From Babesia bigemina (lineage: Eukaryota), in the NCBI RefSeq assembly GCF_000981445.1, contig NW_012237284.1:1-38715 (forward strand): a stretch of 38,715 nucleotides of DNA, in the 5' to 3' direction. The notes under the pieces are model-generated. The model was not told the DNA's origin and made no database searches. It worked only from the letters and a program-made list of their open reading frames with translations. A program made the translations under genes and the position numbers. Below are positions 1 to 30,395 of the stretch, piece after piece (the stretch's first letter is position 1; the number at the start of each line of letters is the position of its first letter).

Positions 1-2171
1 CTCACTAGGTCAGCGCGTAGGTCACTCACTACGTCACTCACTAGGTCAGGGCCTAGGTCACTCACTAGGTCAGCGCGTAGGTCATCGTTAGGTCACTCAC
101 TAGGTTATGGCCTAGGTCACTCACTAGGTCAGGGCCTAGGTCACTCACTAGGTCAGGGCCTAGGTCACTCACTAGGTCAGCGCGTAGGTCACTCACTAGG
201 TCAGGGCCTAGGTCACTCACTAGGTCAGCGGCTAGGTCACTCACTAGGTCAGGGCCTAGGTCACTCACTAGGTCAGCGGCTAGGTCACTCACTAGGTCAG
301 CGGCTAGGTCACTCACTAGGTCACTCACTAGGTCAGGGCCTAGGTCACTCACTAGGTCAGCGGCTAGGTCACTCACTAGGTCAGGGCCTAGGTCACTCAC
401 TAGGTCAGGGCCTAGGTCACTCACTAGGTCAGGGCCTAGGTCACTCACTAGGTCAGCGCGTAGGTCATCGTTAGGTCACTCACTAGGTTATGGCCTAGGT
501 CACTCACTAGGTCACGCACTAGGTCATCGTTAGGTCACTCACTAGGTCACTCACTACGTCACTCACTAGGTCAGGGCCTAGGTCACTCACTAGGTCAGCG
601 GCTAGGTCACTCACTAGGTCAGCGCGTAGGTCACTCACTACGTCACTCACTAGGTCAGGGCCTAGGTCACTCACTAGGTCAGCGCGTAGGTCACTCACTA
701 GGTCATCGTTAGGTCACTCACTAGGTCACGCACTAGGTCATCGTTAGGTCACTCACTAGGTCATCGTTAGGTCACTCACTAGGTCACGCACTAGGTCAGG
801 GCCTAGGTCACTCACTAGGTCAGGGCCTAGGTCACTCACTAGGTCAGGGCCTAGGTCACTCACTAGGTCAGGGCCTAGGTCACTCACTAGGTCAGGGCCT
901 AGGTCACTCACTAGGTCAGCGCGTAGGTCATCGTTAGGTCACTCACTAGGTTATGGCCTAGGTCACTCACTAGGTCAGCGCGTAGGTCACTCACTAGGTC
1001 ATCGTTAGGTCACTCACTAGGTCAGGGCCTAGGTCACGCACTAGGTCATCGTTGGGTCACTCACTAGGTCAGGGCCTAGGTCACTCACTACGTCACTCAC
1101 TAGGTCAGGGCCTAGGTCACTCACTAGGTCAGGGCCTAGGTCACTCACTAGGTCAGCGCGTAGGTCACTCACTACGTCACTCACTAGGTCAGGGCCTAGG
1201 TCACTCACTAGGTCAGCGCGTAGGTCACTCACTAGGTCAGCGCGTAGGTCACTCACTACGTCATCGTTAGGTCACTCACTAGGTCATCGTTAGGTCACTC
1301 ACTAGGTTATGGCCTAGGTCACTCACTAGGTCACGCACTAGGTCATCGTTAGGTCACTCACTAGGTCAGCGGCTAGGTCACTCACTACGTCACTCACTAG
1401 GTCAGGGCCTAGGTCACTCACTAGGTTATGGCCTAGGTCACTCACTAGGTCAGGGCCTAGGTCACTCACTAGGTCAGGGCCTAGGTCACTCACTAGGTCA
1501 GCGCGTAGGTCACTCACTAGGTCAGGGCCTAGGTCACTCACTAGGTCAGCGGCTAGGTCACTCACTAGGTCACTCACTAGGTCAGCGCGTAGGTCACTCA
1601 CTAGGTCACTCACTAGGTCAGGGCCTAGGTCACTCACTAGGTCAGCGGCTAGGTCACTCACTAGGTCATCGTTAGGTCACTCACTAGGTCACGCACTAGG
1701 TCATCGTTAGGTCACTCACTAGGTCAGCGGCTAGGTCACTCACTAGGTCAGGGCCTAGGTCACTCACTAGGTCACTCACTAGGTCAGGGCCTAGGTCACT
1801 CACTAGGTCAGGGCCTAGGTCACTCACTAGGTCAGCGCGTAGGTCATCGTTAGGTCACTCACTAGGTTATGGCCTAGGTCACTCACTAGGTCACGCACTA
1901 GGTCATCGTTAGGTCACTCACTAGGTCAGCGGCTAGGTCACTCACTACGTCACTCACTAGGTCAGCGCGTAGGTCACTCACTAGGTCATCGTTAGGTCAC
2001 TCACTAGGTCACGCACTAGGTCATCGTTAGGTCACTCACTAGGTCATCGTTAGGTCACTCACTAGGTCACTCACTAGGTCAGCGCGTAGGTCACTCACTA
2101 GGTCAGCGGCTAGGTCACTCACTAGGTCAGGGCCTAGGTCACTCACTAGGTCAGCGGCTAGGTCACTCACT
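1..2171. repeat. 12-bp-unit satellite (probably subtelomeric): constant GTCACTCACTAG interleaved with a small set of variant units
   Basis: About 180 units. Variants: GTCAGGGCCTAG, GTCAGCGCGTAG, GTCAGCGGCTAG, GTTATGGCCTAG, GTCACGCACTAG, GTCACTCACTAC and the 11-bp GTCATCGTTAG. It ends abruptly near 2171 and runs off the window start. Confidence 0.95.
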
Positions 2172-2327: not shown

Positions 2328-5300
2328 CTACTTTAAGTTGAGTAGCTCGTTGGGGTCGTCGTCGAAGTAATTGGCGTCGTACAGGGACATCATCTTCTTA
2401 TTGTCGGAGAGCAGCGCCTTGACGTCGATGAGATGGGAGGCCTTGGTGCGGATAAGATGTGACCTGATGTGGAGTATGTCGATGCGGTACAGCATCGTGT
2501 TGGCGAAGATGAGTAATGCTGTGGACCACAGTGCGACGAGCGTGAAGATGAATGGCTCTCGGATGTTGTAGAGGAAATTGTCCATGGCAGTCATGAGTGA
2601 TGCGATAGGCTTGCCGTTGACAATTTCCTTCAGCTTTGCGATAATCTGTTGACATGTGAGTGGCAACTGCGATCCCACCTCCGGCGGCGTGAACCCGTGA
2701 GTGTAGAGGAGGGGCAGCGCAACGGGACATGAGTGGAGGGATTTGCCATCGAAGCAATTATGCTTCTTTAGATCATAGTACATTTTTTCAAGTGACTCCC
2801 ACAGTCTGTCCGGCAGGTACACCGTCCAGCTGAGGTAGGTGTGGGCGAAGCTCTGGGAGTACAGGGCGTAGGCCCGGTAGGTGATGGGAGACATACGTGG
2901 ATGGCAGCTGTCAGGGTCACTACCGCAGCCAACCAGTGTGGACAGGGTACGGGGATGTGCATTGTCGTGGTTGTGATTGGAGACGGAGTTGAGAGACTCT
3001 GTACCTCGGACGCCACTGACAGCTTGGAGGTCGTGGCGACCAAGATGGTCCCAGTCAGGGCAGTCGAGATGCGGAGTGCGGAGTGAGTTTCCTAGTGGAG
3101 ACAATGACTTTGAAGCATACCCGTGCATCTCATTCCCGAAATTGTGGAAGAACGACACAAGCTCCCCGGTGGTGCGCGGCGTCCGCCTGGTGAGGCAGTT
3201 GAGGTAGGAGCACAGTGTCAGCAAGGGGTCCTCACCGCCGCAGCTGGGAGTGAGGATAGTGGAAAGGGTGTTGCCTGTTTGTTGACTACTCGGTAAGTCT
3301 TCATCCCTAAATCCCATCCTGACGCGGCTCTTGAGGCACAGGTTGCACGGGTCGAAGAGGTGCGTCTCGAAGGTGGAGTCCCAGCCGTCGGTCAGGAACG
3401 CCTGGAGGGGGGAGTTAGAAGCAGTGATGTCACTGCCGTAGTTACAATTCTGCCAACCACCATACGTGGAGTTTCTATTACACTGCGCCTTGAGGAACTG
3501 AAACTGGTGGTGGCAGGCGTATGCGTAGTCACGCAGCTGGCAGAGGAGGGCGCAGCAATCAGGCTCGTCGGATTGGGTAGAGGACATAGGCTTCACAGCT
3601 CTTGATGACAGACTTGCTATCCAGTTAGGTGCGATGGATGTGAGCACTGAACCTGCAAACATGGCGGTAAGCTGGAGTATGTCGAAGACATCTGTGGGTC
3701 TGACTTTGGTGTGGTTGATGAATAGCGCAAGGTGTGAAGGTTCATGATGTAAGCCACTAAAGGCCTTGTTAAAACATTCTGTGAGAGTGCTATGATGCTT
3801 TGGGTGCCTAAGTCCAGCTAGCCACTGAAGCATCTCCCGTACGGTGCGCGGCGCCTCGGAGGGGAACAGCTCCGTCTCGGGGATATCGGTGGAGCCAGGA
3901 GTGGGTGTCTGGGTTGTCCAGGGAGCGAGGCATAGTGTAATGTCAGGATGTTTGATGGTTTTTTTATCGAAGTCTTCGGGTGGCTTAAGTTTTGGATCAA
4001 CTACTGGTGGGAAGGTGAGATTGATGGCGGGAGTAGCTGAGTACACTGGTTCAATCGGTTTGATGTTTGGGGGAGGTGGAGGGTCGTATCCCAGGTCTAT
4101 GTCATATGAAGAGTCTTGTAGCGTACGGTCGGGGACTTGGATTTGAAGATCTAAATAATTGGGATCGTCTTGTTTTCTGGGAGTGCCACGTTGTGCGTTC
4201 TCAATCAAAACTCCAGGTACTATAGGATCTAAACGCCTAGAGAACAGTGGGTCGTCTCGTTGGAAGTCGAAGGCTAAATGCGTAGGCCTAAAACCAGAGT
4301 TTGATGGATCATCCAAATTGCTAGACATTCTATCTGGAATTTCAATAGTCATTTGCGGCGTTGTGCGGTTCAGACTATGCTGAACAATGTTAGGATCGGG
4401 ACGTTCTGAAATCGTTCGGCTATGTGGTGGGACATAGATATCGAGAGTGTCGACTGTGTCAGTGTATGCAGGTTTTAGTTGATGAGTAATGTGGACATCA
4501 CCGCCTCTGAAAAGGTCTTTATATAACGTCTTCTGAGATATGGCTCTTACAGTTGCTTCTAGGTTATCCTGTTTTTTTCTAGCATCTTTGAATCGCTTAT
4601 TAAGTTCATGTTTACTGTCAGCGAACATCTTTTCATAGGCTGGGTTATTTCTAGAAGTATCATTGATTACGCTGCCGTGGGAAGCAAATGGCTCTCGCGT
4701 CAAAAAAGGTTTATACTCTCTATTCTGTATAACGGAGCCATGCAGAGTATTTCCTTGCATATATTTTTGAAACAGCTTTTGTTCTGAGTCATCTGGCTGC
4801 GAGTCATTGGTGTCTGCGTCACTTTTCACCACTATCCCATCCAAGGGAAACGAATGTGGAAGTACACTACCTGACGTAAACATTGCATGGTCATTTGACT
4901 TTGCCAGCTGATCTTGAATGTCTTCCTGCATCATTTTCAGAAAGCGGATTTTCTGCTCTTCTTGCCATTTTGCCTTCGCTGCCACCTGTTTTTCGAATAC
5001 ACCGTCAGAGCCGTCGTCATAAACATGACCGTCCACTTTACTGCCAAATTTAAAATTGGGCAATACAGGCTTATTAATATCACGAACCGCATTTCCGACA
5101 AATCCTAACGGAATTTCTTCGTCTACATGCTCCATATTTGGCATAGCATATGTGTTAATTGCTGCACCGTCTAGGCCTAACACTTCGTAGTCATCAGAAG
5201 ATGACACTGCTGTATTTCCATGGCTAATAATTGCTTCATGCCCATCAACGTTAAAAATGGCGGGCTTAACTTCAGCGATAGTCTTGCGGTTCTCTGCAAT

Positions 5301-7787
5301 ATCATTTCCGTCGACATAGATTATCTCCTCGTCACCACCAGACACATCGGTCCCCTCAACGTCCATATCCACCACACCCTTAATATCGACAATCATCTCG
5401 TCCTTATCAACCACTTCCTCCATAACGTCCTCTAATAGTCCCCTTTGCATAGCTTCCCTTAACCTATTTTCCTCTCGCTTCGCTTCCAAATCCCACAATT
5501 TTTTTTGCTCCTCTACTGCCTTTTGTTTTCGTTCTTTCTCACGTCGTTTGTAGGACTGATCCTCTATGGCGTCGCCGCCGAGAATAATATAATCTCCCTG
5601 CCCTCTATCCCTTCCCCTTAGTTCGTAGTAATCACGCTCATGAGCATTATGTTCACCGGTAGACTGAAGGGAGCGTCTGGAAGTGGAATGGCTGGAACGG
5701 CTTTTCGAAGTGAGGGAATCAATACGTGAATTTCGTTTTGAATGTATTTCTCGTAAATCTTTATACTCCGTTTCCAGCATTCCTTGTCTTTGAGCATCTA
5801 AAACTTTATCTTCATCTTGAAAGTTTGGTTTTTCAACACAGAATTTCATGCTGCCAAAGTTAAAAGAAGATTTACCCGGAGGACAGGCAGCAACGCTCGC
5901 CTTTGGTCCACTCCCCCCAGCTCCACCAGCGCCTGAACCTAAATCCGAGCCAGTGTATGCCGTAGTAGCATCGGTCGTAGGATCTTGCGATGTACTTTGA
6001 CCGCTTCCTTGAACAGGCGCAGAAGAACCCGTCTGGCCATCCTGCCCCTGACCACCACTGGAACCAGAGGCACCAGATGACCCAGAGTCCGCACTTGGAA
6101 CACTTGAAGGCTGACTTTGTACTGCCTTTGCAACTGGTGAACTAGAAGTATTTCCCACACTGTGACCATTTCCTTGGTTCTGTGCTCCCTCCACTTTCTT
6201 GCCCTGGTTCTGTGCTCCCTCCACTTTCTTGCCCTGGTTCTGTGCTCCCTCCGCTTTCTTGCCCTGGTTCTGCGCTCCCTCCGCTTTCTTGCCCTGGTTC
6301 TGCGCTCCCTCAGCTTTCTTGCCCTGGTTTGGAGTTGCGTCGCCTTTGGTGACCACAGGCTTCGCGGCCTCGGTTTTGGGCGCTTCGCTTTTGGTTTCAG
6401 GTAATTCCTCATCGGATTCTTCATTCATCAATTCTTCATCAGAATCAGGCTCAGAGTCAAGATAATACTCATCCTCATCCGCAGGCTCAGGCTCAGGCTC
6501 AATCTCAGGCCCAGGCCGAGGCTCTGGCGTAGGCTTAGGCTTCTTCTCAGGCTTCTCATCCTTGTGTCTACTCGCACACTGGTTGCCGTTCAAAATTCTC
6601 ACGAGTCCGTCCAAACCGTCATTCGTTTTCTTGAGCTCATGGATTGCACCATTCCAACTGTCAAACAAATCTTTATAGGGGGTAGTCTCCACTTTATAAT
6701 TGTTATGATATAATGTGAATCCGTAGCGTATGAAGTTATTTGTAAAATATGCCATAAAAGCTTCGGGATATCCCCCAGACAGGGTGTTACCTTTCCGTAT
6801 GTGTTTACCACTCAGCGGATATTTTTTCGTACTGTCAAAGGGTTCGATTGACTTCAATTGTTCCATCACATCACTTAAATGTGTTTTGAACCACTTGGCC
6901 ATTTTCTTGGCAATGTTTTCCGTGGAAAGATATTGAGGTTCGCGCGCATACCCGGTGAAAGAGAATCGGTTTCCGTTGAATATTTTTTCAAGGGACTTTT
7001 TTAGTTTGCTGCAATGTTGTTGTAAGTCTCGCCAAGCAATGCAATGATGCCTGGCTTGTAAATTATTTTTGAAATCGTCCTCATCCCTAACTTTTTCGAA
7101 AATCCCACAAAAGTCTTGCACCAACCGAAGAGCGTTCGCAACATTGGACATATCAGCGCCATGCTTACCAAACACCGAAGTGACGAATACATCGAGAAAT
7201 ACGTTGAATCCACGACCATGTTTTTCTGAAATATCTATAAGGTCAGGCATCATTTTACTACCAGGGGAATAACCACTCCTATGACCCATATTCAGCTCAC
7301 GTGGCGCAAATCCTCCAGGGATTACACCGTAACCATTCGTTTGTGTTGCAATTAGATATTTATCAATCTGACTGCCATAATATACTGATCGTGCGACCAA
7401 TCCAACCTGGTTTTCGGCCCATCCCCCACCACCAAGTGCTTTGAAATTAGCGTCAACTTTGTAGCGCAGGAAATATATAGCGGAAAGCAATCTGGGAATA
7501 CATGCTAACAGAGCGTAGAGTACATCCCTAGGGCTTTTATTACCAAGGTAATGACCGCGAGCATTTTTGCATAATTTCGTATGAAACTTGGATACTCCGC
7601 TAAGGAATATGGAAAGTGCTCTTTCAATTTCACTTTGAGTAAAACCTTTATATCTGTTTTTAAGCAGCCTTTTCAGTCGATTGGCAACGCTGCTTTGCAT
7701 ACCCGTCTTGTCATCTTTCAACCAATAAAGAAATTCCATACACTCCTTAAGGGTATTGAAAGCAGGAATCGTACCTTTCGCCGCCAT
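2328..7787 (-). CDS. Large Babesia VESA-related variant antigen ('ribosome-binding protein 1'-type), 1819 aa, C-terminal TM
   Basis: Uninterrupted ORF. N-terminal 'TLKECMEFLYWL'. C-terminal Cys-rich domain with 'APRTVREMLQWLAGL', 'SPLQAFLTD', 'PRTTGELVSFF', 'YLSWTVYL', then a TM and the tail 'DILHIRSHLIRTKASHLIDVKALL', typical of Babesia ves-like families. Motifs are shared with the other large ORFs here. Confidence 0.88.
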   Translation of the reverse strand: MAAKGTIPAFNTLKECMEFLYWLKDDKTGMQSSVANRLKRLLKNRYKGFTQSEIERALSIFLSGVSKFHTKLCKNARGHYLGNKSPRDVLYALLACIPRLLSAIYFLRYKVDANFKALGGGGWAENQVGLVARSVYYGSQIDKYLIATQTNGYGVIPGGFAPRELNMGHRSGYSPGSKMMPDLIDISEKHGRGFNVFLDVFVTSVFGKHGADMSNVANALRLVQDFCGIFEKVRDEDDFKNNLQARHHCIAWRDLQQHCSKLKKSLEKIFNGNRFSFTGYAREPQYLSTENIAKKMAKWFKTHLSDVMEQLKSIEPFDSTKKYPLSGKHIRKGNTLSGGYPEAFMAYFTNNFIRYGFTLYHNNYKVETTPYKDLFDSWNGAIHELKKTNDGLDGLVRILNGNQCASRHKDEKPEKKPKPTPEPRPGPEIEPEPEPADEDEYYLDSEPDSDEELMNEESDEELPETKSEAPKTEAAKPVVTKGDATPNQGKKAEGAQNQGKKAEGAQNQGKKAEGAQNQGKKVEGAQNQGKKVEGAQNQGNGHSVGNTSSSPVAKAVQSQPSSVPSADSGSSGASGSSGGQGQDGQTGSSAPVQGSGQSTSQDPTTDATTAYTGSDLGSGAGGAGGSGPKASVAACPPGKSSFNFGSMKFCVEKPNFQDEDKVLDAQRQGMLETEYKDLREIHSKRNSRIDSLTSKSRSSHSTSRRSLQSTGEHNAHERDYYELRGRDRGQGDYIILGGDAIEDQSYKRREKERKQKAVEEQKKLWDLEAKREENRLREAMQRGLLEDVMEEVVDKDEMIVDIKGVVDMDVEGTDVSGGDEEIIYVDGNDIAENRKTIAEVKPAIFNVDGHEAIISHGNTAVSSSDDYEVLGLDGAAINTYAMPNMEHVDEEIPLGFVGNAVRDINKPVLPNFKFGSKVDGHVYDDGSDGVFEKQVAAKAKWQEEQKIRFLKMMQEDIQDQLAKSNDHAMFTSGSVLPHSFPLDGIVVKSDADTNDSQPDDSEQKLFQKYMQGNTLHGSVIQNREYKPFLTREPFASHGSVINDTSRNNPAYEKMFADSKHELNKRFKDARKKQDNLEATVRAISQKTLYKDLFRGGDVHITHQLKPAYTDTVDTLDIYVPPHSRTISERPDPNIVQHSLNRTTPQMTIEIPDRMSSNLDDPSNSGFRPTHLAFDFQRDDPLFSRRLDPIVPGVLIENAQRGTPRKQDDPNYLDLQIQVPDRTLQDSSYDIDLGYDPPPPPNIKPIEPVYSATPAINLTFPPVVDPKLKPPEDFDKKTIKHPDITLCLAPWTTQTPTPGSTDIPETELFPSEAPRTVREMLQWLAGLRHPKHHSTLTECFNKAFSGLHHEPSHLALFINHTKVRPTDVFDILQLTAMFAGSVLTSIAPNWIASLSSRAVKPMSSTQSDEPDCCALLCQLRDYAYACHHQFQFLKAQCNRNSTYGGWQNCNYGSDITASNSPLQAFLTDGWDSTFETHLFDPCNLCLKSRVRMGFRDEDLPSSQQTGNTLSTILTPSCGGEDPLLTLCSYLNCLTRRTPRTTGELVSFFHNFGNEMHGYASKSLSPLGNSLRTPHLDCPDWDHLGRHDLQAVSGVRGTESLNSVSNHNHDNAHPRTLSTLVGCGSDPDSCHPRMSPITYRAYALYSQSFAHTYLSWTVYLPDRLWESLEKMYYDLKKHNCFDGKSLHSCPVALPLLYTHGFTPPEVGSQLPLTCQQIIAKLKEIVNGKPIASLMTAMDNFLYNIREPFIFTLVALWSTALLIFANTMLYRIDILHIRSHLIRTKASHLIDVKALLSDNKKMMSLYDANYFDDDPNELLNLK
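6171..6345 (-). repeat. 30-bp coding tandem repeat, about 5.5 copies, encoding NQGKK(A/V)EGAQ
   Basis: Plus-strand unit TG(T/C)GCTCCCTCC(A/G)CTTTCTTGCCCTGGTTC, in frame in the 1819-aa ORF. Confidence 0.95.
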
Positions 7788-8579: not shown

Positions 8580-11500
8580 ATAGTCAAAATTGCCTTCAAA
8601 AATGTTAGTAATTTGGTTAGTAAAACGCTGATCAACTGGTCAAATTGCAATACCATTTTTTGACGGTCCGTCAACGTTTCGTATACAGCAAAAATTATCT
8701 CAATAGAAATTTTTTAGTCCATTCCTAGACTTTACAATTTGCGTTTTTATTTTAATTTAAGGTGTCAGGCTAAGTGCGTAGTTTCGACTATTTTTTGTTT
8801 ATTTTTTTATTTGCACCTGTCCACATAGTTACCTAAATCTCAAAAGATGTTTTATAAATATATTAAGGGAGTTGGAATCTTCTGTGATTTTGGGGGAAAC
8901 TTTGAGAAACGTGTTTTCTCGGGTTTATCACAGAAAGGAAATTTTTCCGATGTCACTGGGGGGTGTATTGAAGGCCAAAAGTGCGGAATTAAAGCGGCAA
9001 CATCGCGAGGCGAAAGGCGGCCACACAGGCGCGCTGGATAGACGAACAAGGTACCAATGGAGAGCTCACAAGAAGTGCAGCTGAGCAGTCAAATCGATGA
9101 GGACGGAGACCTCATGGTTATTGACGTGGACGTCCCCGATGGGATGGACATCGATGCTCCGCTTGCCACCGTGGGGCGCCGAGAGTGTCGGCAACCCGAA
9201 AGGCGGCATGAATCCAGAAAACCGGTACAAAGCGGTGTTCAGGGCCCTAAAGGTAAACCCACAAATTCGAAGGGGGCCGGCCGTGGCGGCGAAAGCCGGC
9301 CAATCCCGCAGGCAAGCCGGAAACGACACCAGCCCGGAACCACTCCGGCTGTGAAGGGCGCTGGAAACAAAGCGCGGAACGGCGGTCCCCAGGGCCAAAA
9401 GGGTAACAACCGGAAGGCCAAAAAGACAGGAAACACGGCTCAAACGCCGCCTGTCGTGGTTTGCAACGCCGGGCCGAGTTCCTCGGAACGCGCACCCGTG
9501 TGTGTGCAGACACTGTCTACCCTGCAGCCACCGGCAGGGGAGGTTGTCGGAAACGGTGGCTGCCGCTCTCCGACCGTGTATTCCATATCGTCGGATGACT
9601 TTATGGACGTGGACGAAGAGGAACCTGAGCAAGTCGGGCCTGTGAGAGAATCAAACAACAGTATAGCACCGGGCACCGCCAGTGAGGTGGCGCTCACTGA
9701 GACGGCTGCGTTGCCGAGGGCACCCGAAGGGCACGCCCCGCAGGCTGAACGGGCCGGGAACACGCCACAAATGCCGCCGAACTACGCTAGGCTGAATGCC
9801 AAGTTACAGTTCCTGCACTGTGTCATGCGTCAGATCGATGGACCATGGTGTCATTGGGTACCGGACGTCTACAAGGCAGTAGTGACGAAGTATCAGAGGA
9901 TGCCACGAGGAGGATGGAAAGTCCTCGCGGAATATGCCAACGAGCATTTCGAATTCCACAAGACCCACAAGGAGGTGGAGCAGATGGCAAGACAGGTAGT
10001 CGCCAAAGCAGCGCGGAGCCAACCGACGGACGTTGGAGAAATAGCATCGCTGCACGACGTCGACTCATACAACGCCCTGCAGGAGGATTTCGACCGGATC
10101 ATGGCACAGAGGTTGAGGGAGCCTGGTGTGATTAGGACAGTAAAGAACAAAAGACACACCATGGACTCCCTCGACTTCACGGCGATAAGGTCGCTGGATC
10201 TAGTGGTCCACAACTACGTGAAGCACAACCCAGTCACTGACATGGGGATGCTAGCCGTCTTGTATCAGACGGCACAGGACTGCTACGACAAGTACAGCGC
10301 AAAACCATCGTCGTCCTCGGGAAAGAAGGAGGCAGCTGAGAGGAGGATCAAGGAGCTGGAGGAGATAGGAGCATTACTTCTGAAATACAAGCAGAAGGTC
10401 CCCCTGGAGAAGGAGGATAGGAAACGCGTTTATCGCCAAATGGACAAGTACAACATGATCGCGGACAAGCCGCAGGAACTGTCATACGTGATCAGCAGGA
10501 CTCAAGAGGAGCTCCAAAAGGAGCAGGACAAACTCAAGAACGCCAAGTTCAAGAAGGAGTTGTACAACGACAACCGCATGTTCGAGCTCTACACGGGACA
10601 CTTCTACAGGACACTGGAGAACAAGCAGGACGCGGACGAGTCGGCGATAAACGAGGGGATGATGATAGAGTACTGGGCGCAAATGTGGGTGAAGCCAAAC
10701 GCACCGCACAACGGTGAAGGATATCTGGTCGAAAGACCACCGGCAGAGAACAAGGCAGGCTTTCCCACATACGAGGAATTCGTCACGATCGTCAAGAAAT
10801 TGCGAGACTGGAAGTCGCCCGGTGCGGATGGGATCTACAACTACTACATTAAATGGCTCACGTCCCTTCACAGAGTCATTTACAGGCTAGTAGAGGAGGC
10901 ATGCCAGCAAGGCAAAGTGCAGGACGACTGGTTCTACTGTGGGATCACGTACCTACTACCGAAGAACAAGAAACCAAAGTCCGCCGCACAGTACAGGCCT
11001 ATCACATGCATGTCCAACCTATACAAGCTAACTACCCGCTGTGCAACGGAGACGCTTAAGCGAGAAGTCGATGGCAGGGGACTACGGTCCGAGAACCAGA
11101 TGGGCACGAGGAGCAACGTACAGGGTGCAAAGGAGCACGCGTTAGCGAACATCGCGCTCAACGAGAAGCACAAGGGGAAGTTACTTGCAACGTGGGTCGA
11201 CGTCATGAAGGCGTACGACTCAATCGACCACGCGTACCTGGCAAGGGTTATCGACAACCTTAACCTACCAGGGTGGTTATCAAACTTCATCAAGCAGACG
11301 ATCAAGAGGTGGAATATAGAGATACGGTGGAACAAGAACACAATCATGCACAAGAAAGTGGAGAGGGGCATTCTCCAAGGCGACAGCCTATCGCCCCTTC
11401 TCTTCGTGCTGTGCTTGGACCCGCTGAGCAGGCACCTGACTCGCATCTTCCCCAAGGTGGAGTTAAGCGTGACCGGCGGCAGGATATTCGCCACAAACCA

Positions 11501-13182
11501 CTTTCTCTATATTGACGACCTCAAGTTCTTCGCCCACGAGGAAAGTACGATGAGAGGAATGGGCCGAGAAGTGGAGAAGTTCTTCAACGACATAGGACTC
11601 AGGATCAACCGCGACAAGTCGGCAACCAACACGGAGGCGTGCGCCAGCATCGCCAAGCAGATGGAAGGCCCGGAAACGTACAAGTACTTGGGAGTCACAG
11701 AGACTTCAAACTCACTGACAAGCGACGGAATGTTCGACATAATACTACAGGAGATATGCAGGAGAACGGAGCTACTGGCTGCGTCAAAGCTGTCGGGGAA
11801 AAACCTCTCGATGGCCATCAACCAGTACGCCCTCAGCGTCATAAACTACTACATAGGCGTGATCCCCATGGACATCACGCACATCGACAGGATTGACTTG
11901 TAGACGCGCACAAGGCTCTCGGCAAAAGATGAACAAGTAACGTGGACGAACACACAACGGCTCTACCTCCCCCGGAAAGAGATGGGGAGAGGGCTCCACA
12001 GCATGGTATTCAGAGCGGAAGCCATGCTGCTACGACTGTGGTTGACGTTTTCAGCAGACGAGGTGACGTCAACCAGGAGGGCTGCGATCATGCAGCATTT
12101 TCGCGACACATACGCGCACATATCTCATATCAAGATGCACCTGGAAGGGAGATATGGAATGGAATTCGGAGTGGAGGACACGACGGACAAGAGCCTCAGG
12201 GACCTCAGGGTGGCCCAAAACAAATGGCTGTACAACAGAATGCACGTAAAATCAACTCATAAGGTTCTGTATGCCAAGCGTGAGGACCCCAAGCTGGACA
12301 TCGAGGCGTCGTCATTGTACCTGACGTGTGGAATACTCACCCCGGAAGAAGAAGCGAAGGTAGCAGAAGTCCAGGACAGGAATCTGCAATGGATGACTTC
12401 GTCCAACAAATGCTCAAGATGCAACAACGGCAAGAACGTGGACCACCTCGCGACGAAGTGCCCGAAACTACTACACCTTGAATATACGAAGAAGCACAAC
12501 GAGGTAGCAAAACGGGTCCACTCAGTACTCGGGAGGCAAATAGGACTACCCAAGGAGAAGATAGACGCCCACAAGATCGAGAGTGAAGTGCACGGAAAAT
12601 ACGGATGGATCGCGTACGACAAGACGGTCAAGACTCAGAAGACTAAGGAATACAACAGGCCAGACATCATCCTGGCGGATCGGCGGAGGAACACCATAAC
12701 CATCGTGGAGATAGGAATCACCAATCAAGACAACCTAGTGGATACGGAGAAGTTCAAGAAGCAGAAGTATGAAGACCTTATCGAGGACCTCAAGGCGCGA
12801 CAGTTTAACCAGCAAACCAAGATCAGGGTTATCCCCTACGTTATGACGTGGGAGGGAATAGTGACAAAGGAGCACAGCAAGTACAGACGGGACCTGGGCA
12901 TATCGGATCGCATGGAAGCCCACATACAAAGGGTAGTGATCCAAGAAACACATAAAATAGTGATGAGGGATATGAAGCCGAAAGAAGACTACGATTCCGT
13001 AGAAGACCCTCAAGCCCAAACTGTATGGATGCCCGCATGGATGGCACCAGTGACGTCCGGCAATGGACCGGCGTGGATCCCGCAACCGGTTTCAGCGTGA
13101 GGCGTTAGCCCCGCAAACACGAAAACCGGCCCAAGGCACGTAGCCACATAGCACACTACAAGATGAGATAACTTAAATTAAT
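8580..13182 (+). mobile_element. Non-LTR retrotransposon copy 1 (RLE-type, R4-like); 5' boundary uncertain
   Basis: Single long RT/endonuclease frame 9057-13100 plus an 82-nt 3' UTR ending ...AACTTAAATTAAT, identical to copy 2. Homology to copy 2 spans 9287-13182. The 5' limit is only guessed from the AT-rich stretch starting near 8580. Confidence 0.88.
9057..13100 (+). pseudogene. Retrotransposon ORF (RT + CCHC + PD-(D/E)xK endonuclease) interrupted by one in-frame TAG at 11901-11903
   Basis: ORFs 9057-11903 and 11982-13100 share a frame. RT motifs: KSPGADGI, YRPITC, DVMKAYDSIDH, GILQGDSLSPLLF, YIDD, YKYLG, then RLYLPRKEMGRGL. C-terminal motifs: CSRC..DHLATKC, KHNEV, RPDIIL..IVEIGIT..KY. 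Confidence 0.92.
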
Positions 13183-15328: not shown

Positions 15329-18300
15329 CTATTGAACTGCAAGTTGACCAATAGCGTCCTCGTCGAAGTAGTCGACGTCTTAGAGTGATAGCATCTTCCC
15401 GCCTTTAGTGAGTAGCGCCTTGACGTCGATGAGATGGTAGGCCTTGGTGGTCAGGAGATGTGATCGGATGCAGAGGACGTCCGGGCGGTAGAGGAAAGTG
15501 TGGAGTAGGTACAGCGCCACGAGAGACCACAGTGCGATGGAGCAGTAGAAGAAAGGCATCCGTATGTGCCACATGAGTTTGACGATTTGCCGGAACAATT
15601 CAGTGAAGTGGCCAGAGTGCAGCGCCTTTCTGAGTTGTGCGTTGAGGTCTCCGCAGCGTATGCCAACGTTTTCAGTGACCAGGAGATCTGCGTTACTATA
15701 CGTGAATCCGTAACGTTAGAGGGTTGGCAGTGGCCCGGCGCACTGGACGATGGAAGGGCAGTGGCAGGTATCCTTCCCACCGTGGGTGCCGGGTTTACAG
15801 GGGCATGTGGCACACCCGGACGCCGTGCAGTCGATGTTATCCAGCGCGTGGAGTAAGTCACATAGCAACTCCCAGAATCGCCATGCCAGGTACATTATCC
15901 ACGTGATGTGTAGCCCGGCGTGCTTCTGCGGGTAGGTGTGATGGGCGTGGAGTCCTAGGGGTTGGAGGTAGGGAGCGCATCCACGGGGTGACTTGCAAGT
16001 GGAGTCGTGGAAGAGGGTGGACAACGCATTGTGGTTTTTGTGGCCATGGCCGGAGAGTGATGCGATGGCACTAGTGAGCTGGTGATTTTCATAACTGCCA
16101 TGGAGCAGTGTCCACAGTGGGAAGAGGCTGTCGATGCCGTCAGTGTTGAGGTGCGATATGAAATTGGAGGCATCGGTGTACGTGCCGCCACGGTGCTCAA
16201 CACGGTCATGAGAGTCCCACTTCCGAAGCAGCTGAGCATACAATGCAAACACGTCGGCGAGTGATGACGGTGCAGCGGGACACGACAAGAACAGAGTCCA
16301 ACAGAGCACGAACAGGCATGAATCGGAGTCACGGCACATATCGCCGAGGCGCTTGGCGAGATCTAACCCGGTGCCACTTATGGAGGCAGCAAAGCCAAGG
16401 TCCCAGAAGCCGAGCGGAGTGAGGCACTGCTGGCCGAGTTGGTTGGAGGTGCAGTTGGCACATTCGATGACCATGTCAGCAGCGGTAAGGGTATGCGGCA
16501 GAAGTCCGTGGCAGCAGTCACAGAGGAACGACTGGAGCGGCGAGGTGGGCGGGCAGCCGTGAATGGTGGTGGTGGAGGAAGTGGTAGTTGTAGTAGTTGC
16601 AGCAGTAGTAGTACTGATAGTACTAGAGTAAGTGCCGATTTGTTTACACTGCCAGTGGTGTGACTGCACCTGCCGGCCGTACGCGCACTCCCGCCACCCC
16701 TTGACCCGGGCGGTGCTGCGGCAGCACTGGGAGTACAGGAAGTAGAGCACTCTACTAAGACGGCATGCTATCTCACGTAGCATATCAAGCAGCGCATCTG
16801 GTTCATAGGGGTAGTGGAGCTTGGCACGGTTGTTGGAGGAGTCCGCCGAATACGGGTAGGCGGCGAAGTCGATGCCGTGGCCGTTGCCCTGGATGGCGGT
16901 GAGCAGTGCGGTGGAGTGTGAACATGTTGTTGCGATGGTATATGGTAGCTCATCAATGCACTTGGCCATGACAGAATCGTCCCTGTTGGGTGTGTCGCTG
17001 TCGTGGCATCGGCGGTCGAGCAGAGCCTTGCAGTGGCCTGGCAGCTTGTTCGCCACCTGTGTATACTGCAGCCCGGAGAGCCACGACAGCATGTCCCTGA
17101 CCGTGCAGGGGTATCGTGGCTCAGGGGGAGCAGGGATGTGGCAGACCTGGAAGTATTGACATAAGAGGTTGTGGAGCAGCGACATGATGGTGACCAAGTT
17201 GATTCCATTTTCCAATGGCTCACCGTCAATCATCATCTCGATAGCCACACCCTCAATTGGAGTTGCAAGTAACTCGTATATCCCACCGCCAGTAAACATG
17301 TTGTTCAACTCGCCGTCTTGCCCACTGTCGGAACTAGACACCCTGTACCCGCACCTGGTGAGGTAGTTGCCAAGTGGGTTATCCCTCTCGTCAGCAGTGA
17401 ACTTACTAATGTGAAGTGCTTTACACTCACCTTCACATTTCGTCGCCAACTTGGTAAGCGCTTGGTGCGTCATAGGTATAATGCTGAGGAACACCTTAGC
17501 GTACTTGTGGGCGTGTTCCTCCCTGCACCGCTGACCGGAGTAGGTGGAGATGTAAGTGTTGCCGAGCTCACCGGTGAATTTGGAGAGACCAATAGAGACA
17601 GTGTCGAGCAGCGGAGTGGACGGGTGCTTGAAGTAGAAGGGTGCCATATTACTCAGCGCCTTGCTCAGCCTCTCAACCAGCTCGGTGAGTCTGTCGGTAC
17701 CTCTATCATTGTCCCTTAGGTAGGCGAGCAGCGCAGTGAGCGCGTCATAAACATCATTGAGCTTGGGCGTGTAGGGCTCTTTGGTTGGTGGCAAAGAGGG
17801 ATTCTTCTCCTTGTTTTGCTCATCGTGCAGCCTGGTGATTTCCCCTGCGACATACTTCTCAATTTGCTCGAACACCTCCTGGAATGCGGATGATAATTCT
17901 GCGACGCTCTGTTCCTCACCTGTTAGATCGGAGCGCAGCGGTCGTTGCAAGTACTTCATGAACCCTTTATAGCCCACGTACCTATCCCTGTTTATCTCAT
18001 GTGGCAGCAGGTTTAAATCCTCGTTGACTTTCTTGGCAAACAATTCCAACGCCTCCCTCAGCGAGTCCACGTACAGCCCACGGGCTTCCTTGGTGAGGTC
18101 CTTGATGGCGTCGTCCACCTCACAGTCGACGTGCTTCAAAAGGGCATGGACGGTGTTCTTCTCTATCTCGTCGGCTTTATCAAGGAAGTCGTCACACAAC
18201 CTGATGGCTTCGGCAAGGTCGGTGAGTCGGAGGTTGGTGAGACCACCTTGTATGCCTTTGAGTTTCCCGTCAATATGCGGAATCTCAAGCTGGTTCAGAT

Positions 18301-19517
18301 TCCAGCCAGCATAGGCACCAGCTTTTTGGATGGCTAAGCTCATCTTACCTAAATTGTCAGTGATCCCTTTGCCCTGGTCGTTCTTGAGGGACTCCATTTC
18401 ACGTTTGATTTTCTTAAGGCCTTCATTGTCACTTCGACCAATGTGTTTTGTCATGAATTCCAGATTCTTGACTACGCCTCGATATTTGGGATCCTCGCTG
18501 TCCGTGCCCTGCAACTCGGTTCGGAGACTCTGAAGTTCGTCAGTTATCTCCTTCATACCTGAGCTTATTATTTCGGGTTGGTGGGATAACTGATTTTGTT
18601 GACTCTGAACATTGCGCTTAATATGGTCGAAGCCCTTGACATTTTTCCCATTCCATTGCTCACTGCCACCGAACTCCTTGTCCAGGAGATCAGTTAACAT
18701 AGTGCTAACTTCATCTTGTAATTCACCTTTAAGCTTCTTAAGATCCTTTTCAATTTCTTCCTTTGCTTGTCCGATTTCTTTGAGTCTATTAGTAAAAGCA
18801 TTTGCCTGCAGACTACTAATCTTTTTTTTGATTTCTTGAAGACTTCCATCGTCACTTTTAGCAAGACCAATACCAATCTTCCTTTGCAGCAGCTGTAAGT
18901 TGTGCACAATGTCATCTTCAGGAATGAGTTCATGACTCAATTTCTTTCTAACATTTCGGAGAACACTTTGGGTTTGTTGCAGTACACTCTCGGTTGCTTG
19001 TTCAATGTTTTCACTTGCCTCAGACAACTGCGTATTCTTCTCATGGAGTTCATTGTTGATTTTACTGAGACCATCTTTACTATTTTGCCACTCCTCACCA
19101 CCAAGTCCTTTCGTTAACAAGTCTCCCAACCTGTTTATCAGACTATTATTAGGACTTCCAGACTCGCTTTTTAACTCTTTTCTAAGCTCTTCAAGCACAG
19201 TGGTAATGAGGTGGACGCCAGAGCCGAGTAGTGTGGGCTGGCCGGTCAACCAATTCAAGTGAAGTTGAAGTTCCTTTTCAATTAACTCATGGCCTTTTTC
19301 GTTATAGTATTTCTGCCATTTACCATTGCCAAGACCGGTACCCCTCAAATCCTTGATTGTCTCAATGACTTCATTGTTCAACAGATGGTGAAGCACTGCA
19401 AGCTTACGTCTGATTACGCCGACGGCTAGGCCGATGTCCCTGGGTTTCTCACTAAAATGCTTTGCCTGTTGCTTGCTAATCTCCGTAAGTATGCTCATGA
19501 GATTATTTTGATATTTG
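15329..19517 (-). pseudogene. VESA-related large antigen pseudogene (coiled-coil N-region), 5' end replaced by retrotransposon copy 2, two in-frame TAA
   Basis: The frame is open from the element junction at 19517 to TAA 15716-15718. It continues in frame (RYGFTYSN...IALWSLVALYLL...IRSHLLTTKAYHLIDVKALL) to TAA 15380-15382, then DVDYFDED to the natural TAG at 15329-15331. Confidence 0.85.
16563..16628 (-). repeat. Thr/Ser-rich trinucleotide-like tract inside the antigen pseudogene
   Basis: Encodes SSTISTTTAATTTTTTSSTTT. Confidence 0.6.
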
Positions 19518-22500
19518 ATTAATTTAAGTTATCTCATCTTGTAGTGTGCTATGTGGCTACGTGCCTTGGGCCGGTTTTCGTGTTTGCGGGGCTAACGCCT
19601 CACGCTGATACTGGTTGCGGGTTCCACGTCGGTCCATTGCCGGACGTCACTGGTGCCATCCATGCGGGCATCCATACAGTTTGGGCTTGAGGGTCTTCTA
19701 CGGAATCGTAGTCTTCTTTCGGCTTCATATCCCTCATCACTATTTTATGTGTTTCTTGGATCACTACCCTTTGTATGTGGGCTTCCATGCGATCCGATAT
19801 GCCCAGGTCCCGTCTGTACTTGCTGTGCTCCTTTGTCACTATTCCCTCCCACGTCATAACGTAGGGGATAACCCTGATCTTGGTTTGCTGGTTAAACTGT
19901 CGCGCCTTGAGGTCCTCGATAAGGTCTTCATACTTCTGCTTCTTGAACTTCTCCGTATCCACTAGGTTGTCTTGATTGGTGATTCCTATCTCCACGATGG
20001 TTATGGTGTTCCTCCGCCGATCCGCCAGGATGATGTCTGGCCTGTTGTATTCCTTAGTCTTCTGAGTCTTGACCGTCTTGTCGTACGCGATCCATCCGTA
20101 TTTTCCGTGCACTTCACTCTCGATCTTGTGGGCGTCTATCTTCTCCTTGGGTAGTCCTATTTGCCTCCCGAGTACTGAGTGGACCCGTTTTGCTACCTCG
20201 TTGTGCTTCTTCGTATATTCAAGGTGTAGTAGTTTCGGGCACTTCGTCGCGAGGTGGTCCACGTTCTTGCCGTTGTTGCATCTTGAGCATTTGTTGGACG
20301 AAGTCATCCATTGCAGATTCCTGTCCTGGACTTCTGCTACCTTCGCTTCTTCTTCCGGGGTGAGTATTCCACACGTCAGGTACAATGACGACGCCTCGAT
20401 GTCCAGCTTGGGGTCCTCACGCTTGGCATACAGAACCTTATGAGTTGATTTTACGTGCATTCTGTTGTACAGCCATTTGTTTTGGGCCACCCTGAGGTCC
20501 CTGAGGCTCTTGTCCGTCGTGTCCTCCACTCCGAATTCCATTCCATATCTCCCTTCCAGGTGCATCTTGATATGAGATATGTGCGCGTATGTGTCGCGAA
20601 AATGCTGCATGATCGCAGCTCTCCTGGTTGACGCCACCTCGTCTGCTGAAAACGTCAACCACAGTCGTAGCAGCATGGCTTCCGCTCTGAATACCATGCT
20701 GTGGAGCCCTCTCCCCATCTCTTTCCGGGGGAGGTAGAGCCTCTGTGTGTTCGCCCACTTCTTGTGTCCGTGCTTCGCGTTAATTATTCTCCGTACTGCC
20801 AGGTCGATCTTGTCGAAATGCGTGATGTCCATGGGGATCACGCCGATGTAGTAGTTGATGACGCTGAGGGCGTACTGGTTGATGGCCATCGAGAGGTTTT
20901 TCCCCGACAGCTTTGACGCAGCCAGTAGCTCCGTTCTCCTGCATATCTCCTGTAGTATTATGTCGAACATTCCGTCGCTTGTAAGTGAGTTTGAAGTCTC
21001 TGTGACTCCCAAGTACTTGTACGTCTCCGGGCCTTCCATCTGCTTGGCGATGCTCACGCACGCCTCCGTGTTGGTTGCCGACTTGTCGCGGTTGATCCTG
21101 AGTCCTATGTCGTTGAAGAACTTCTCCACTTCTCGGCCCATTCCTCTCATCGTACTTTCCTCGTGGGCGAAGAACTTGAGGTCGTCAATATAGAGAAAGT
21201 GGTTTGTGGCGAAGACCCTGCCGCCAGGCACGCTTAGCTCCACCTTGGGGAAGATGCGAGTCAGGTGCCTGCTCAGCGGGTCCAAGCACAGCACGAAGAG
21301 AAGGGGCGATAGGCTGTCGCCTTGGAGAATGCCCCTCTCTACTTTCTTGTGCATGATTGTGTTCTTGTTCCACCGTATCTCTATATTCCACCTCTTGGTC
21401 GTCTGCTTGATGAAGTTTGATAACCACCCTGGTAGGTTAAGGTTGTCGATAACCCTCGCCAGGTACGCGTGGTCGATTGAGTCGTACGCCTTCATGACGT
21501 CGACCCACGTTGCAAGTAACTTCCCCTTGTGCTTCTCGTTGAGCGCGATGTTAGCTAACGCGTGCTCCTTTGCACCCTGTACGTTGCTCCTCGTGCCCAT
21601 CTGGTTCTCGGACCGTAGTCCCCTGCCATCGACTTCTCGCTTAAGCGTCTCCGTTGCACAACGGGTAGTTAGCTTGTATAGGTTGGACATGCACGTGATA
21701 GGCCTGTACTGTGCGGCGGACTTTGGTTTCTTGTTCTTCGGTAGTAGGTACGTGATCCCACAGTAGAACCAGTCGTCCTGCACTTTGCCTTGCTGGCATG
21801 CCTCCTCTACTAGCCTATAAATGACTCTGTGAAGGGACGTGAGCCATTTAATGTAGTAGTTGTAGATCCCATCCGCACCGGGCGACTTCCAGTCTCGCAA
21901 TTTCTTGACGATCGTGACGAATTCCTCGTATGTGGGAAAGCCTGCCATGTTCTCTGCCGGTGGTCTTTCGACCAGGTATCCTTCACCGTTGTGCGGTGCG
22001 TTTGGCTTCACCCACATTTGCGCCCAGTACTCTATCATCATCCCCTCGTTTATCGCCGACTCGTCCGCATTCTGCTGATTCTCCAGTGTCCTGTAGAAGT
22101 GTCCCGTGTAAAGCTCGAACATGCGGTTGTCGTTGTACAACTCCTTCTTGAACTTGGCGTTCTTGAGTTTGTCCTGCTCCTTTTGGAGCTCCTCTTGGGT
22201 CCTGCTGATCACGTATGACAGTTCCTGCGGCTTGTCCGCGATCATGTTGTACTTGTCCATTTGGCGATAAACGCGTTTCCTATCCTCCTTCTCCAGGGGA
22301 ACCTTCTGCTTGTATTTCAGAAGTAATGCTCCTATCTCCTCCAGCTCCTTGATCCTCCTCTCAGCTGCCTCCTTCTTTCCCGAGGACGACGATGGTTTCG
22401 CGCTGTACTTGTCGTAGCAGTCCTGTGCCGTCTGATACAAGATGGCTAGCATGCCCATGTCAGTGACTGGGTTGTGCTTCACGTAGTTGTGGACCACTAG

Positions 22501-29591: not shown

Positions 29592-30395
29592 GCGATGTAG
29601 AGTGGATAAGGGGCGATGTAGAGTGGATAAGGGGCGATGTAGAGTGGATAAAGGGGCGATGTGGAGTGGGTTAAGGGGCGATGTGGAGTGGGTTAAGGGG
29701 CGATGTAGAGTGGGTTAAGGGGCGATGTAGAGTGGGTTAGGGAGCGATGTAGAGTGGGTTAGGGAGCGATGTAGAGTAGGTTAGGGAGCGATGTAGAGTG
29801 GATAAAGGGGCGATGTAGAGTGGGTAAAGGGGCGATGTAGAGTGGGTTAAGGGACGATGTAGAGTGGGTTAGGGAGCGATGTAGAGTGGGTTAGGGAGCG
29901 ATGTAGAGTGGGTTAGGGAGCGATGTAGAGTGGATAAAGGAGCGATGTAGAGTGGATAAAGGAGCGATGTAGAGTGGGTTAGGGAGCGATGTAGAGTGGA
30001 TTAGGGAGCGATGTAGAGTGGTTAAAGGGGCGATGTAGGGTGGGTTAGGGAGCGATGTGGAGTGGGTTAGGGAGCGATGTGGAGTGGATAAAGGGGCGGT
30101 GTGAAGTGGATTAGGGAGCGATGTAGAGTGGATAAGGGGCGATGTAGAGTGGATAAGGGGCGATGTAGAGTGGATAAGGGAGCGATGTAGAGTGGGTTAG
30201 GGAGCGATGTAGAGTGGGTTAGGGAGCGATGTAGAGTAGGTTAGGGAGCGATGTAGAGTGGATAAAGGGGCGATGTAGAGTGGGTAAAGGGGCGATGTAG
30301 AGTGGGTTAAGGGACGATGTAGACTGGATAAAGGGGCGATGTGGAGTGGGTTAAGGGGCGATGTGGAGTGGGTTAAGGGGCGATGTAGAGTGGAT
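29592..30395. repeat. 21-22-bp G-rich minisatellite GCGATGTAGAGTGG(GTTAGGGA/ATAAAGGG), about 37 units
   Basis: Directly visible tandem array. Many units contain GGGTTAGGG. Confidence 0.95.

What the first reader, a model, noticed from the sequence alone, without database searches (positions are those of the whole stretch)
6171..6345. Mammalian RRBP1/p180 decapeptide repeat inside a parasite variant antigen: host-derived insert or mimicry
Seen: ...DATPNQGKKAEGAQNQGKKAEGAQNQGKKAEGAQNQGKKVEGAQNQGKKVEGAQNQG in the low-complexity hinge of the 1819-aa protein. Known: NQGKKAEGAQ/P, with KKVEGAQ and TPNQGKK variants, is the tandem ribosome-binding repeat of vertebrate RRBP1 (p180). A 10-residue unit that also matches its variants is unlikely to arise by chance. 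Inference: host mRNA or DNA was captured, possibly by retrotransposition since an RT lies under 3 kb away, or this is molecular mimicry. It probably explains the automatic 'ribosome-binding protein 1' label on this family.
Basis: partly seen in the sequence, partly recalled or inferred. Interest (0 to 1): 0.85.

Follow-up and report, generated by a model that had tools for sequence, protein, structure and literature searches.

The report
Parasite antigen wearing host protein repeats
A variable antigen of the cattle blood parasite Babesia carries a predicted flexible stalk made of near-exact copies of mammalian protein repeats (RRBP1 and collagen VI here, titin in sister genes), and the same RRBP1 repeat recurs in predicted surface proteins of three unrelated pathogens, likely as camouflage against antibodies.

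Summary
The repeat is real: five in-frame NQGKK(A/V)EGAQ units (6171-6329, minus strand) in a Babesia bigemina ves1a variant antigen, with a 37-residue exact match to mammalian RRBP1. It is not a one-off insert beside the retroelement: 30 of 33 ves1a homologues from B. bigemina and B. ovata carry it. It is one module of a host-like cassette. The 17 residues upstream match bovine collagen VI alpha3 at 15 positions (42 of 44 in a B. ovata paralogue), and other paralogues carry up to 25 exact residues of titin PEVK. The same decapeptide also sits in Mesomycoplasma P97 adhesins (the known R2 repeat), Trypanosoma vivax GPI-type proteins and a Plasmodium coatneyi KIR. In the searches run it was found only in mammalian RRBP1 and these pathogens. 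Best reading: a disordered ectodomain spacer built from host self-sequence, likely kept because tolerance blunts antibodies to it. Origin (old capture of host nucleic acid versus stepwise convergence) is open, because no host DNA could be compared. The 'ribosome-binding protein 1' label is a misannotation. Closest known case: CD99 mimicry by P. knowlesi KIRs. I found no paper reporting these matches.

The parts
2328..7787 (-). ves1a variant erythrocyte surface antigen gene (P0001, 1819 aa, one uninterrupted ORF)
   Evidence: nearest homologue P0114 = CDR97436, classed ves1a
6558..7778 (-). N-terminal folded helical domain (about aa 4-410), conserved across ves1a; no fold match in PDB
   Evidence: AlphaFold2 pLDDT mostly above 85; Foldseek no hit at E<=0.001
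6345..6395 (-). Collagen VI alpha3-like segment, T465-K481: 15 of 17 residues identical to PDB 9han_C 2761-2777 (bovine cornea collagen VI), with an 11-residue exact run
   Evidence: E 0.35 alone, only PDB hit; paralogues P0132 E 1e-11 and P0150 42 of 44 identical; source of 9HAN
6171..6335 (-). RRBP1-type decapeptide array: TP plus five NQGKK(A/V)EGAQ units plus NQG (aa 485-539)
5868..6485 (-). Predicted disordered hinge (aa 435-640) that holds both host-like modules, an acidic run and a Ser/Gly-rich tail
   Evidence: pLDDT below 50 over nearly all of aa 435-635
2496..2552 (-). C-terminal hydrophobic helix (about aa 1746-1764) in the conserved VESA1 C-terminal domain
   Evidence: hydropathy; C-terminal homology to P0002, E 3e-29
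9287..13182 (+). Neighbouring RT element, split in two ORFs; not part of the feature
   Evidence: PF00078; 97.7% identical to the inverted copy at 19518-23413

Best explanation
The decapeptide array is one module of a host-like cassette in the hinge of Babesia ves1a variant antigens, a predicted disordered ectodomain spacer that copies mammalian RRBP1, collagen VI alpha3 and titin repeats and is likely kept because host self-tolerance blunts antibodies against it. Shown: the matches, their fixed order (collagen VI- or titin-like piece first, RRBP1 array last), their family-wide spread in two species, and the same decapeptide in P97 adhesins, T. vivax proteins and a KIR. Predicted: hinge disorder and extracellular position. 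Inferred: an exposed stalk of linear epitopes is an antibody target, self-identical sequence is spared, and slippage plus gene conversion expand and spread the modules among paralogues. On origin I put about 55% on old capture of host nucleic acid, before or around the bigemina/ovata split, and about 40% on stepwise convergence under antibody selection.
For: (1) 30 of 33 homologues found by the N-terminal domain alone have at least one RRBP1 unit, 12 of 33 an exact 7-9-mer collagen VI word, 9 of 33 a titin run of 7 or more; 32 of 33 have at least one, and in all 19 co-occurrences the RRBP1 array is last. (2) B. ovata P0150 aa 414-457 is 42 of 44 identical to 9han_C; only 12 of 40,320 orderings of its eight pentamers come within 2 mismatches. 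(3) Titin: 25 exact residues shared by P0151, P0152 and P0155 with a galago titin fragment; shuffled hinges reach at most 8-9; PF02818 passes its cut-off in 5 of the 6 non-titin hits. (4) Of the best 150 hits among 1.84e9 representatives, the 26 new ids with a unit of 7/10 or better are 5 RRBP1 or RRBP1-like pieces, 15 ves1a, 2 P97, 3 T. vivax and 1 P. coatneyi KIR; the other 109 new ids have none. Only Mesomycoplasma came up in 185,579 GTDB genomes; none in metagenome or viral contigs. (5) In the T. vivax and KIR proteins the repeat lies between the folded domain and the C-terminal anchor. (6) In mycoplasma arrays synonymous differences exceed non-synonymous ones in 9 of 10 genomes (e.g. 977 vs 143), so the peptide is what is kept. 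(7) Precedent: KIR/CD99 exact matches up to 36 aa.
Against: No immunological test supports silence: on a published T. vivax array the 5 repeat-overlapping peptides show no response, but neither do the 6 other peptides of that gene. RRBP1 repeat and titin PEVK are intracellular in the host, where B-cell tolerance is weaker (general knowledge). Jackson et al. found little ves1a expression in a cultured isolate, although two 'Ribosome-binding protein 1' genes are over 120-fold up in blood stages. Surface exposure of B. bigemina VESA1a is assumed from B. bovis. P97 R1/R2 have reported adhesive roles. The synonymous count used units preselected at 7/10 identity, which favours conservation. Only 120 of 175 and 150 of 294 hits were listed. 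The KIR and T. theileri cases rest on one database protein each. The collagen match in the window alone is weak (E 0.35).
Confidence: 0.6

Rival explanations
1. Ligand mimicry: the Lys-rich host-like repeats are adhesive or signalling modules that bind glycosaminoglycans, fibronectin or host receptors, and are kept for binding rather than for immune silence.
For: P97/Mhp271 R1 and R2 are reported to bind heparin, fibronectin and cilia, and Mhp271 R1-2 binds GRP78; R2 is the same decapeptide and R1 has 9han_C as its only strong PDB hit. B. bovis VESA1 mediates cytoadhesion.
Against: Polycation binding does not need residue-for-residue identity to three different host proteins, two of them cytosolic. 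Copy number varies from 0 to 17, and collagen and titin modules replace each other among paralogues.
Confidence: 0.22
2. Recombination seam or neutral spacer: a host-derived or self-made repeat is kept as a shared DNA homology block that lets ves1a genes swap N- and C-terminal halves.
For: Repeat DNA is close across paralogues (100 of 111 and 103 of 116 laid contigs at 90% or more in two runs) while N-terminal domains are 34-71% identical in protein; ves1 recombination is documented.
Against: Does not explain why the peptide equals host sequence, why three host proteins are copied, or why mycoplasma arrays diverge in DNA while keeping the peptide.
Confidence: 0.1
3. Recent RT-mediated insertion of host RRBP1 mRNA at this locus.
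For: An RT element starts about 1.5 kb upstream of the gene; repeat GC3 is 0.70 against 0.40 in the N-terminal domain.
Against: Present in 30 of 33 paralogues in two species across the tree; RT copies are young; no poly(A); GC3 is also 0.66 in the C-terminal domain; only 5 served sequencing runs hold any sampled 31-mer, and the two laid with flank cover are Babesia ves1a paralogues.
Confidence: 0.03
4. Functional ribosome or mRNA binding, as in p180.
For: [quoted passage not shown]
Against: 5 units against 54; predicted ectodomain position; mature erythrocytes lack ribosomes (general knowledge); the same unit occurs in a mycoplasma surface adhesin and GPI-type proteins; no beta-helix in the model.
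Confidence: 0.03
5. Chance similarity of low-complexity sequence.
For: About 14 shared 10-mers are expected between proteomes of assumed size.
Against: P(42 or more of 44) under the segment's own composition is 3e-31 per alignment; 25-residue titin identity; carriers found are confined to mammals and their pathogens.
Confidence: 0.02

Closest known systems
Plasmodium knowlesi KIR / P. cynomolgi CYIR mimicry of host CD99
   Same: Variant surface antigen family with long exact host matches (up to 36 aa; 56 aa similar in CYIR) in the extracellular part. A P. coatneyi KIR carries the RRBP1 repeat itself.
   Different: CD99 is an immune surface receptor and the match is in 7 KIRs. Here three structural or ER proteins are copied in a fixed order, in 32 of 33 family members examined, and one module is shared with a bacterium and a trypanosome.
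Mesomycoplasma hyopneumoniae P97 / Mhp271 R1 and R2 repeats
   Same: R2 is described as GTPNQGKKAE, a phase shift of the same decapeptide; R1 resembles the same collagen VI alpha3 region. R1 precedes R2 in P0199, as in ves1a.
   Different: Known as adhesion repeats; none of the passages read links them to host proteins. The R1 match to bovine collagen VI is compositional, not exact. Third codon positions match the window at only 303 of 980, so no DNA kinship.
BbigVes1a / B. ovata ves1a (Jackson 2014; cluster 2 of PMC5660447)
   Same: This is a member: conserved C-terminal domain, TM helix, variable low-complexity region.
   Different: The low-complexity region was noted only as such; its identity to host proteins is not mentioned in the passages read.
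Vertebrate RRBP1 / p180 ribosome receptor
   Same: Decapeptide consensus and several variants; 12 of 49 distinct Babesia units occur exactly in 7 mammalian proteins.
   Different: No N-terminal anchor, no PF05104, no homology outside the repeat; 1-17 units instead of up to 54; a frequent Ser6 variant (24% in Babesia, 2% in the mammals sampled).

Membership tests
Babesia ves1a (VESA1a) | Conserved VESA1 C-terminal domain with one TM helix | tested here: met
   Pfam VESA1_N not hit in P0001, weak in 2 paralogues
Babesia ves1a (VESA1a) | Clusters with genes classed ves1a | tested here: met
   6 of 6 B. bigemina homologues looked up, including the nearest (CDR97436), are ves1a in the supplement of PMC5660447
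Babesia ves1a (VESA1a) | Variable-length low-complexity region | tested here: met
Babesia ves1a (VESA1a) | Head-to-head pairing with ves1b (35% of B. bigemina cases) | tested here: not met
   upstream lie a 157-aa ORF and an RT element; not obligatory
Babesia ves1a (VESA1a) | Expression on the infected erythrocyte surface | not testable with these tools
   little ves1a expression in culture; two such genes up in blood stages
RRBP1 / p180 | Decapeptide tandem repeat | tested here: met
RRBP1 / p180 | N-terminal anchor with PF05104, and C-terminal coiled coil | tested here: not met
   no PF05104; masked BLAST gives no hit for P0001 and 2 weak hits (E about 5e-4) for 1 of 34 proteins
RRBP1 / p180 | Ribosome binding | not testable with these tools
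   needs a binding assay
KIR/CD99-type linear host mimicry | Long exact host match inside a variant surface antigen ectodomain | tested here: met
   37 aa RRBP1, 42 of 44 collagen VI alpha3, 25 aa titin; ectodomain position is predicted
KIR/CD99-type linear host mimicry | Match specific to the natural host lineage | tested here: inconclusive
   collagen match is to the bovine-tissue entry 9HAN, the only one that hit; no other species' chain was available; RRBP1 and titin matches are to non-ruminant mammals
KIR/CD99-type linear host mimicry | Effect on host immunity | tested here: inconclusive
   published T. vivax array: repeat and non-repeat peptides of the gene all unreactive
Retro-captured host mRNA insert | Single-locus insert with poly(A) or target-site duplication | tested here: not met
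   family-wide; no poly(A) at the junctions; target-site duplication not searched formally
Retro-captured host mRNA insert | Synonymous-site identity with the host gene above chance | not testable with these tools
   no mammalian RRBP1, COL6A3 or TTN DNA was obtained
Pentapeptide-repeat beta-helix (PF01469) | Folded beta-helix | tested here: not met
   no hit in P0001; array pLDDT below 50; longer arrays do hit PF01469 and were not folded

The most novel reading that the evidence does not exclude
Mammalian proteomes contain a few 'safe-harbour' tandem repeats (RRBP1 decamer, titin PPAK, collagen VI alpha3 Lys/Pro repeat) that are holes in the antibody repertoire. Unrelated pathogens (a piroplasm, a malaria parasite, two trypanosomes, a mycoplasma genus) have independently walked onto them residue by residue under antibody selection, reaching 25-44 residue host identity with no gene transfer at all.
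Probability: 0.3. Interest if true: 0.95.

Novelty: new variant of a known kind. Interest (0 to 1): 0.86.

Why it matters
It turns an annotation error on a large gene family into a testable immune-evasion feature, and ties together four pathogen lineages that share one host peptide. It bears on whether long exact host matches in parasite antigens arise by transfer or by selection, and supplies a case (bovine COL6A3, 44 residues) where synonymous sites can decide. It matters for vaccine design: P97 R1/R2 are used as pig vaccine antigens, and self-like segments could be poorly immunogenic or cross-react with host. It also predicts where the host antibody repertoire has holes.

Tried and rejected
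No whole genome is held for the window, so paralogues came from protein databases. Host DNA: peptide-pattern scans of metagenome and viral contigs found nothing; the p180 cloning paper is held as abstract and references only; no host RRBP1 contig was recognisable, but human-like contigs are filtered, so this is no evidence. The synonymous-site comparison with host genes is therefore still open. No RNA holder listed. Runs X3-X5 held under 5 words; X4 and X5 were laid, X3 was not. Pfam gave no family for P0001. PDB sequence searches with the repeat, the PEVK stretch and whole P0001 gave nothing useful. Foldseek found no fold match. ESM Atlas hits were all 0.80 or lower, leads only. Babesia-mycoplasma transfer rejected: third-position identity 303 of 980. 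Contamination rejected. The tree is the quick version, 59 of 60 rows, and was used only to show that the modules are spread across it; its 57 of 60 count is biased by repeat-based retrieval, so 30 of 33 is the count used. My in-phase counter scores P0148 as zero although it holds a phase-shifted unit. Three papers sought by recalled ids (P97 cloning 1997, P97 heparin binding 2006, P. knowlesi genome 2008) are not held; they may already note an R2-p180 likeness or further KIR host matches. One of four supplements of PMC4066756 could not be searched. Earlier findings of the scan: none.
Full report
Observation. The window's ORF 2328-7787(-) encodes a 1819-aa protein, P0001. A 30-nt tandem repeat at 6175-6329 (5.2 copies, 97% matches) encodes N487-G539: three NQGKKAEGAQ, two NQGKKVEGAQ and NQG, preceded by DATP. 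A region search returned 175 proteins, of which 120 were listed: 7 mammalian RRBP1, 14 B. bigemina or B. ovata 'ribosome binding protein 1', and 99 Mesomycoplasma P97-family adhesins. The longest exact match to a mammalian RRBP1 is 37 residues. The p180 consensus NQGKKAEGAP x54 is given in the abstract of PMC2120505 and in passages of PMC12491259.

The gene. P0001 falls in a cluster with a B. bigemina protein. Its nearest homologue is CDR97436 (71% over the N-terminal domain). All 6 B. bigemina homologues looked up are classed ves1a in supplement 2 of PMC5660447. The C-terminal domain is homologous to the window's other VESA-like protein P0002 (E 3e-29) and ends in a hydrophobic helix near aa 1746. 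AlphaFold2 on aa 1-640 with 60 sequences gives a confident helical domain to about aa 410 and pLDDT below 50 over nearly all of aa 435-635. By analogy with B. bovis VESA1 (surface location listed in PMC4413850) the hinge is inferred to be extracellular. With repeats masked, P0001 has no similarity to RRBP1, so the database label comes from the repeat alone.

Distribution in Babesia. Searching with the N-terminal domain only (aa 1-410) gave 33 proteins, all B. bigemina or B. ovata. Thirty of the 33 carry 1-10 units at 7/10 identity or better, at the same hinge position; proteins found through the repeat carry up to 17. No graded precursors appear. Passages of PMC10463595 place the ves1a expansion after the split from B. 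caballi and report RT-gene expansions in B. caballi and B. ovata. The two RT copies in the window are 97.7% identical over 3.9 kb. The array is thus older than these copies and not a local insert. In two runs that hold ves1a flanks, 100 of 111 and 103 of 116 laid contigs are at least 90% alike to the window stretch, and depth on the repeat is roughly 100 times that of the flanks. This fits homogenisation among paralogues (inference).

A cassette, not one repeat. Other hinges carry a titin PEVK (PPAK, PF02818) piece. A search with a 40-aa stretch of P0130 returned 7 proteins: a galago titin fragment (P0149; its cluster includes mouse titin), 5 B. ovata ves1a, and a 347-aa Trypanosoma theileri protein with hydrophobic N- and C-termini. 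Exact runs shared with P0149 are 25 residues in three B. ovata proteins and 21 in T. theileri; 2000 shuffles of each of four hinges reach at most 8-9. A third motif matches collagen VI alpha3: a 42-aa stretch of P0132 has one PDB hit, 9han_C (E 1e-11), and P0150 aa 414-457 is 42 of 44 identical to 9han_C 2745-2788. 9HAN is the microfibril refinement from bovine cornea (passages of PMC12354898); that the deposited sequence is bovine is inferred from this. Under the segment's own composition P(42 or more of 44) is 3e-31, and 12 of 40,320 orderings of its pentamers come within two mismatches. In the window, T465-K481, directly upstream of the array, is 15 of 17 identical to 9han_C 2761-2777 (weak alone, E 0.35). 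Two variants seen in paralogous contigs turn the following GD into AE, the collagen residues. Among the 33 unbiased homologues, 30 have the RRBP1 unit, 12 an exact collagen VI word, 9 a titin run of 7 or more, and 32 at least one; the RRBP1 array is last in all 19 co-occurrences.

The same decapeptide in other pathogens. HMMER over 1.84e9 representatives gave 294 hits, 150 listed, 135 new to the session. Twenty-six of these have a unit of 7/10 or better: 5 RRBP1 or RRBP1-like pieces (one unnamed), 15 ves1a, 2 P97 (M. hyopneumoniae, M. dispar), 3 T. vivax proteins from three records, and 1 P. coatneyi KIR (PF05795); 109 have none. In T. vivax and the KIR the array lies between the Cys-rich or VIR domain and the C-terminal anchor. 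A T. vivax protein shares 57 exact residues with galago RRBP1. A scan of 185,579 prokaryote genomes confirmed 5 loci, all Mycoplasma sp. 'Moose RK' or M. ovipneumoniae. In the order of M. ovipneumoniae 15 of 400 sampled genomes matched, one was not scored, and 12 of the 15 hold true units. PMC9542919 describes P97 R2 as GTPNQGKKAE and R1 as AAKPV(E), with adhesive roles (passages). P97 R1 has 9han_C as its only strong PDB hit (E 2e-15, not exact). Among 106 mycoplasma units, synonymous differences exceed non-synonymous ones in 9 of 10 genomes with more than 3 units (units preselected at 7/10), and third positions match the window at 303 of 980. The peptide is conserved and there is no DNA kinship with Babesia.

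How it likely works. Shown: sequence identity, order, spread, recurrence. Predicted: disorder, ectodomain position. Inferred: a long disordered stalk presents linear epitopes; replacing them with abundant, repetitive host sequence spares them from antibodies; slippage and gene conversion tune and spread the modules. Binding to polyanions or matrix is the main rival, but it does not need exact identity to three host proteins. The only immune data found are uninformative: in supplement 9 of PMC9529106 all 11 peptides of TvY486_0030430, 5 overlapping the repeat, are unreactive (section 23 read). Against the reading: little ves1a expression in a cultured isolate (PMC4066756 passages), offset by two such genes up 136- and 175-fold in blood stages (PMC9806345 passages); and two of the three host proteins are intracellular.

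Origin. A 44-residue collinear match with ordered variants is what a template would give, which favours capture of host nucleic acid followed by selection. Repeated arrival at the same RRBP1 unit in four lineages, and a muscle-protein repeat in blood parasites, sit as well with stepwise convergence under antibody selection. No host DNA was obtained, so synonymous sites are untested.

Comparison and novelty. The closest known case is KIR/CD99 mimicry (passages of PMC4413850, PMC3759362, PMC3050887). The main text of the mimicry screen PMC3050887 has no 'titin' or 'ribosome'. A full-text search for the motif found 3 papers, two on p180 and one on Mhp271. Searches (listings only, apart from the papers cited here) showed no paper linking ves1a, P97 R2, T. 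vivax or KIR proteins to RRBP1, titin or collagen VI. PMC11414289, PMC3932138 and PMC6039474 were read as passages and add nothing on this. Three older primary papers were not held, and annotators have evidently seen the likeness ('ribosome-binding protein 1', 'putative titin'). Verdict: real; a new variant of known linear host mimicry, notable for its three-protein mosaic and for one host peptide shared across a bacterium, two apicomplexans and a trypanosome. Interest 0.86.

Noticed in passing
window 9287-13182 (+) and 19518-23413 (-): Two 97.7%-identical inverted copies of a non-LTR-type RT element (PF00078; downstream Cys/His and PD-(D/E)xK-like motifs seen by eye); one has an intact 1165-aa ORF, the other is split. 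RT expansions are reported for B. caballi and B. ovata.
   Followed up: partly
P0199 (M. hyopneumoniae P97) R1 region: R1 repeat resembles the Lys/Pro-rich region of collagen VI alpha3 (only strong PDB hit, E 2e-15), giving the same collagen-then-RRBP1 order as ves1a. Pig COL6A3 was not available.
   Followed up: partly
P0153 (T. theileri ORC90036): Mucin-like predicted surface protein with 21 exact residues of titin PEVK.
   Followed up: partly
P0117, P0119 (Mycoplasma sp. 'Moose RK'); L003, L005: The decamer array also occurs in P110/LppT-type adhesins, so it has spread between adhesin paralogues in one genome.
   Followed up: no
L001, L002, L006, L009: GC3 of mycoplasma repeat codons is higher than for the same amino acids elsewhere in the ORF (48/134 vs 91/426; 15/43 vs 39/278): a donor trace or selection against slippage.
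   Followed up: partly
B. ovata ves1a hinges, e.g. P0082, P0128, P0142: Gly-X-Y collagen-like runs follow the RRBP1 array in several paralogues (loose pattern); P0142 lacks all three modules and has an Arg/Gly/Pro-rich hinge. Possibly further host-like modules.
   Followed up: no
window 1-2171; 29592-30393; 38045-38582; 32137-32436 and 27995-28057: Long 12-nt, 22-nt and 24-nt tandem arrays flank the ves genes.
   Followed up: no
window 32582-38014, 15716-19498, 27167-28201 (-); 24664-26193 (+): Further VESA-like ORFs without the host-like words and a multi-TM protein that may belong to the mfs family expanded in B. bigemina and B. ovata (family named; not tested).
   Followed up: no
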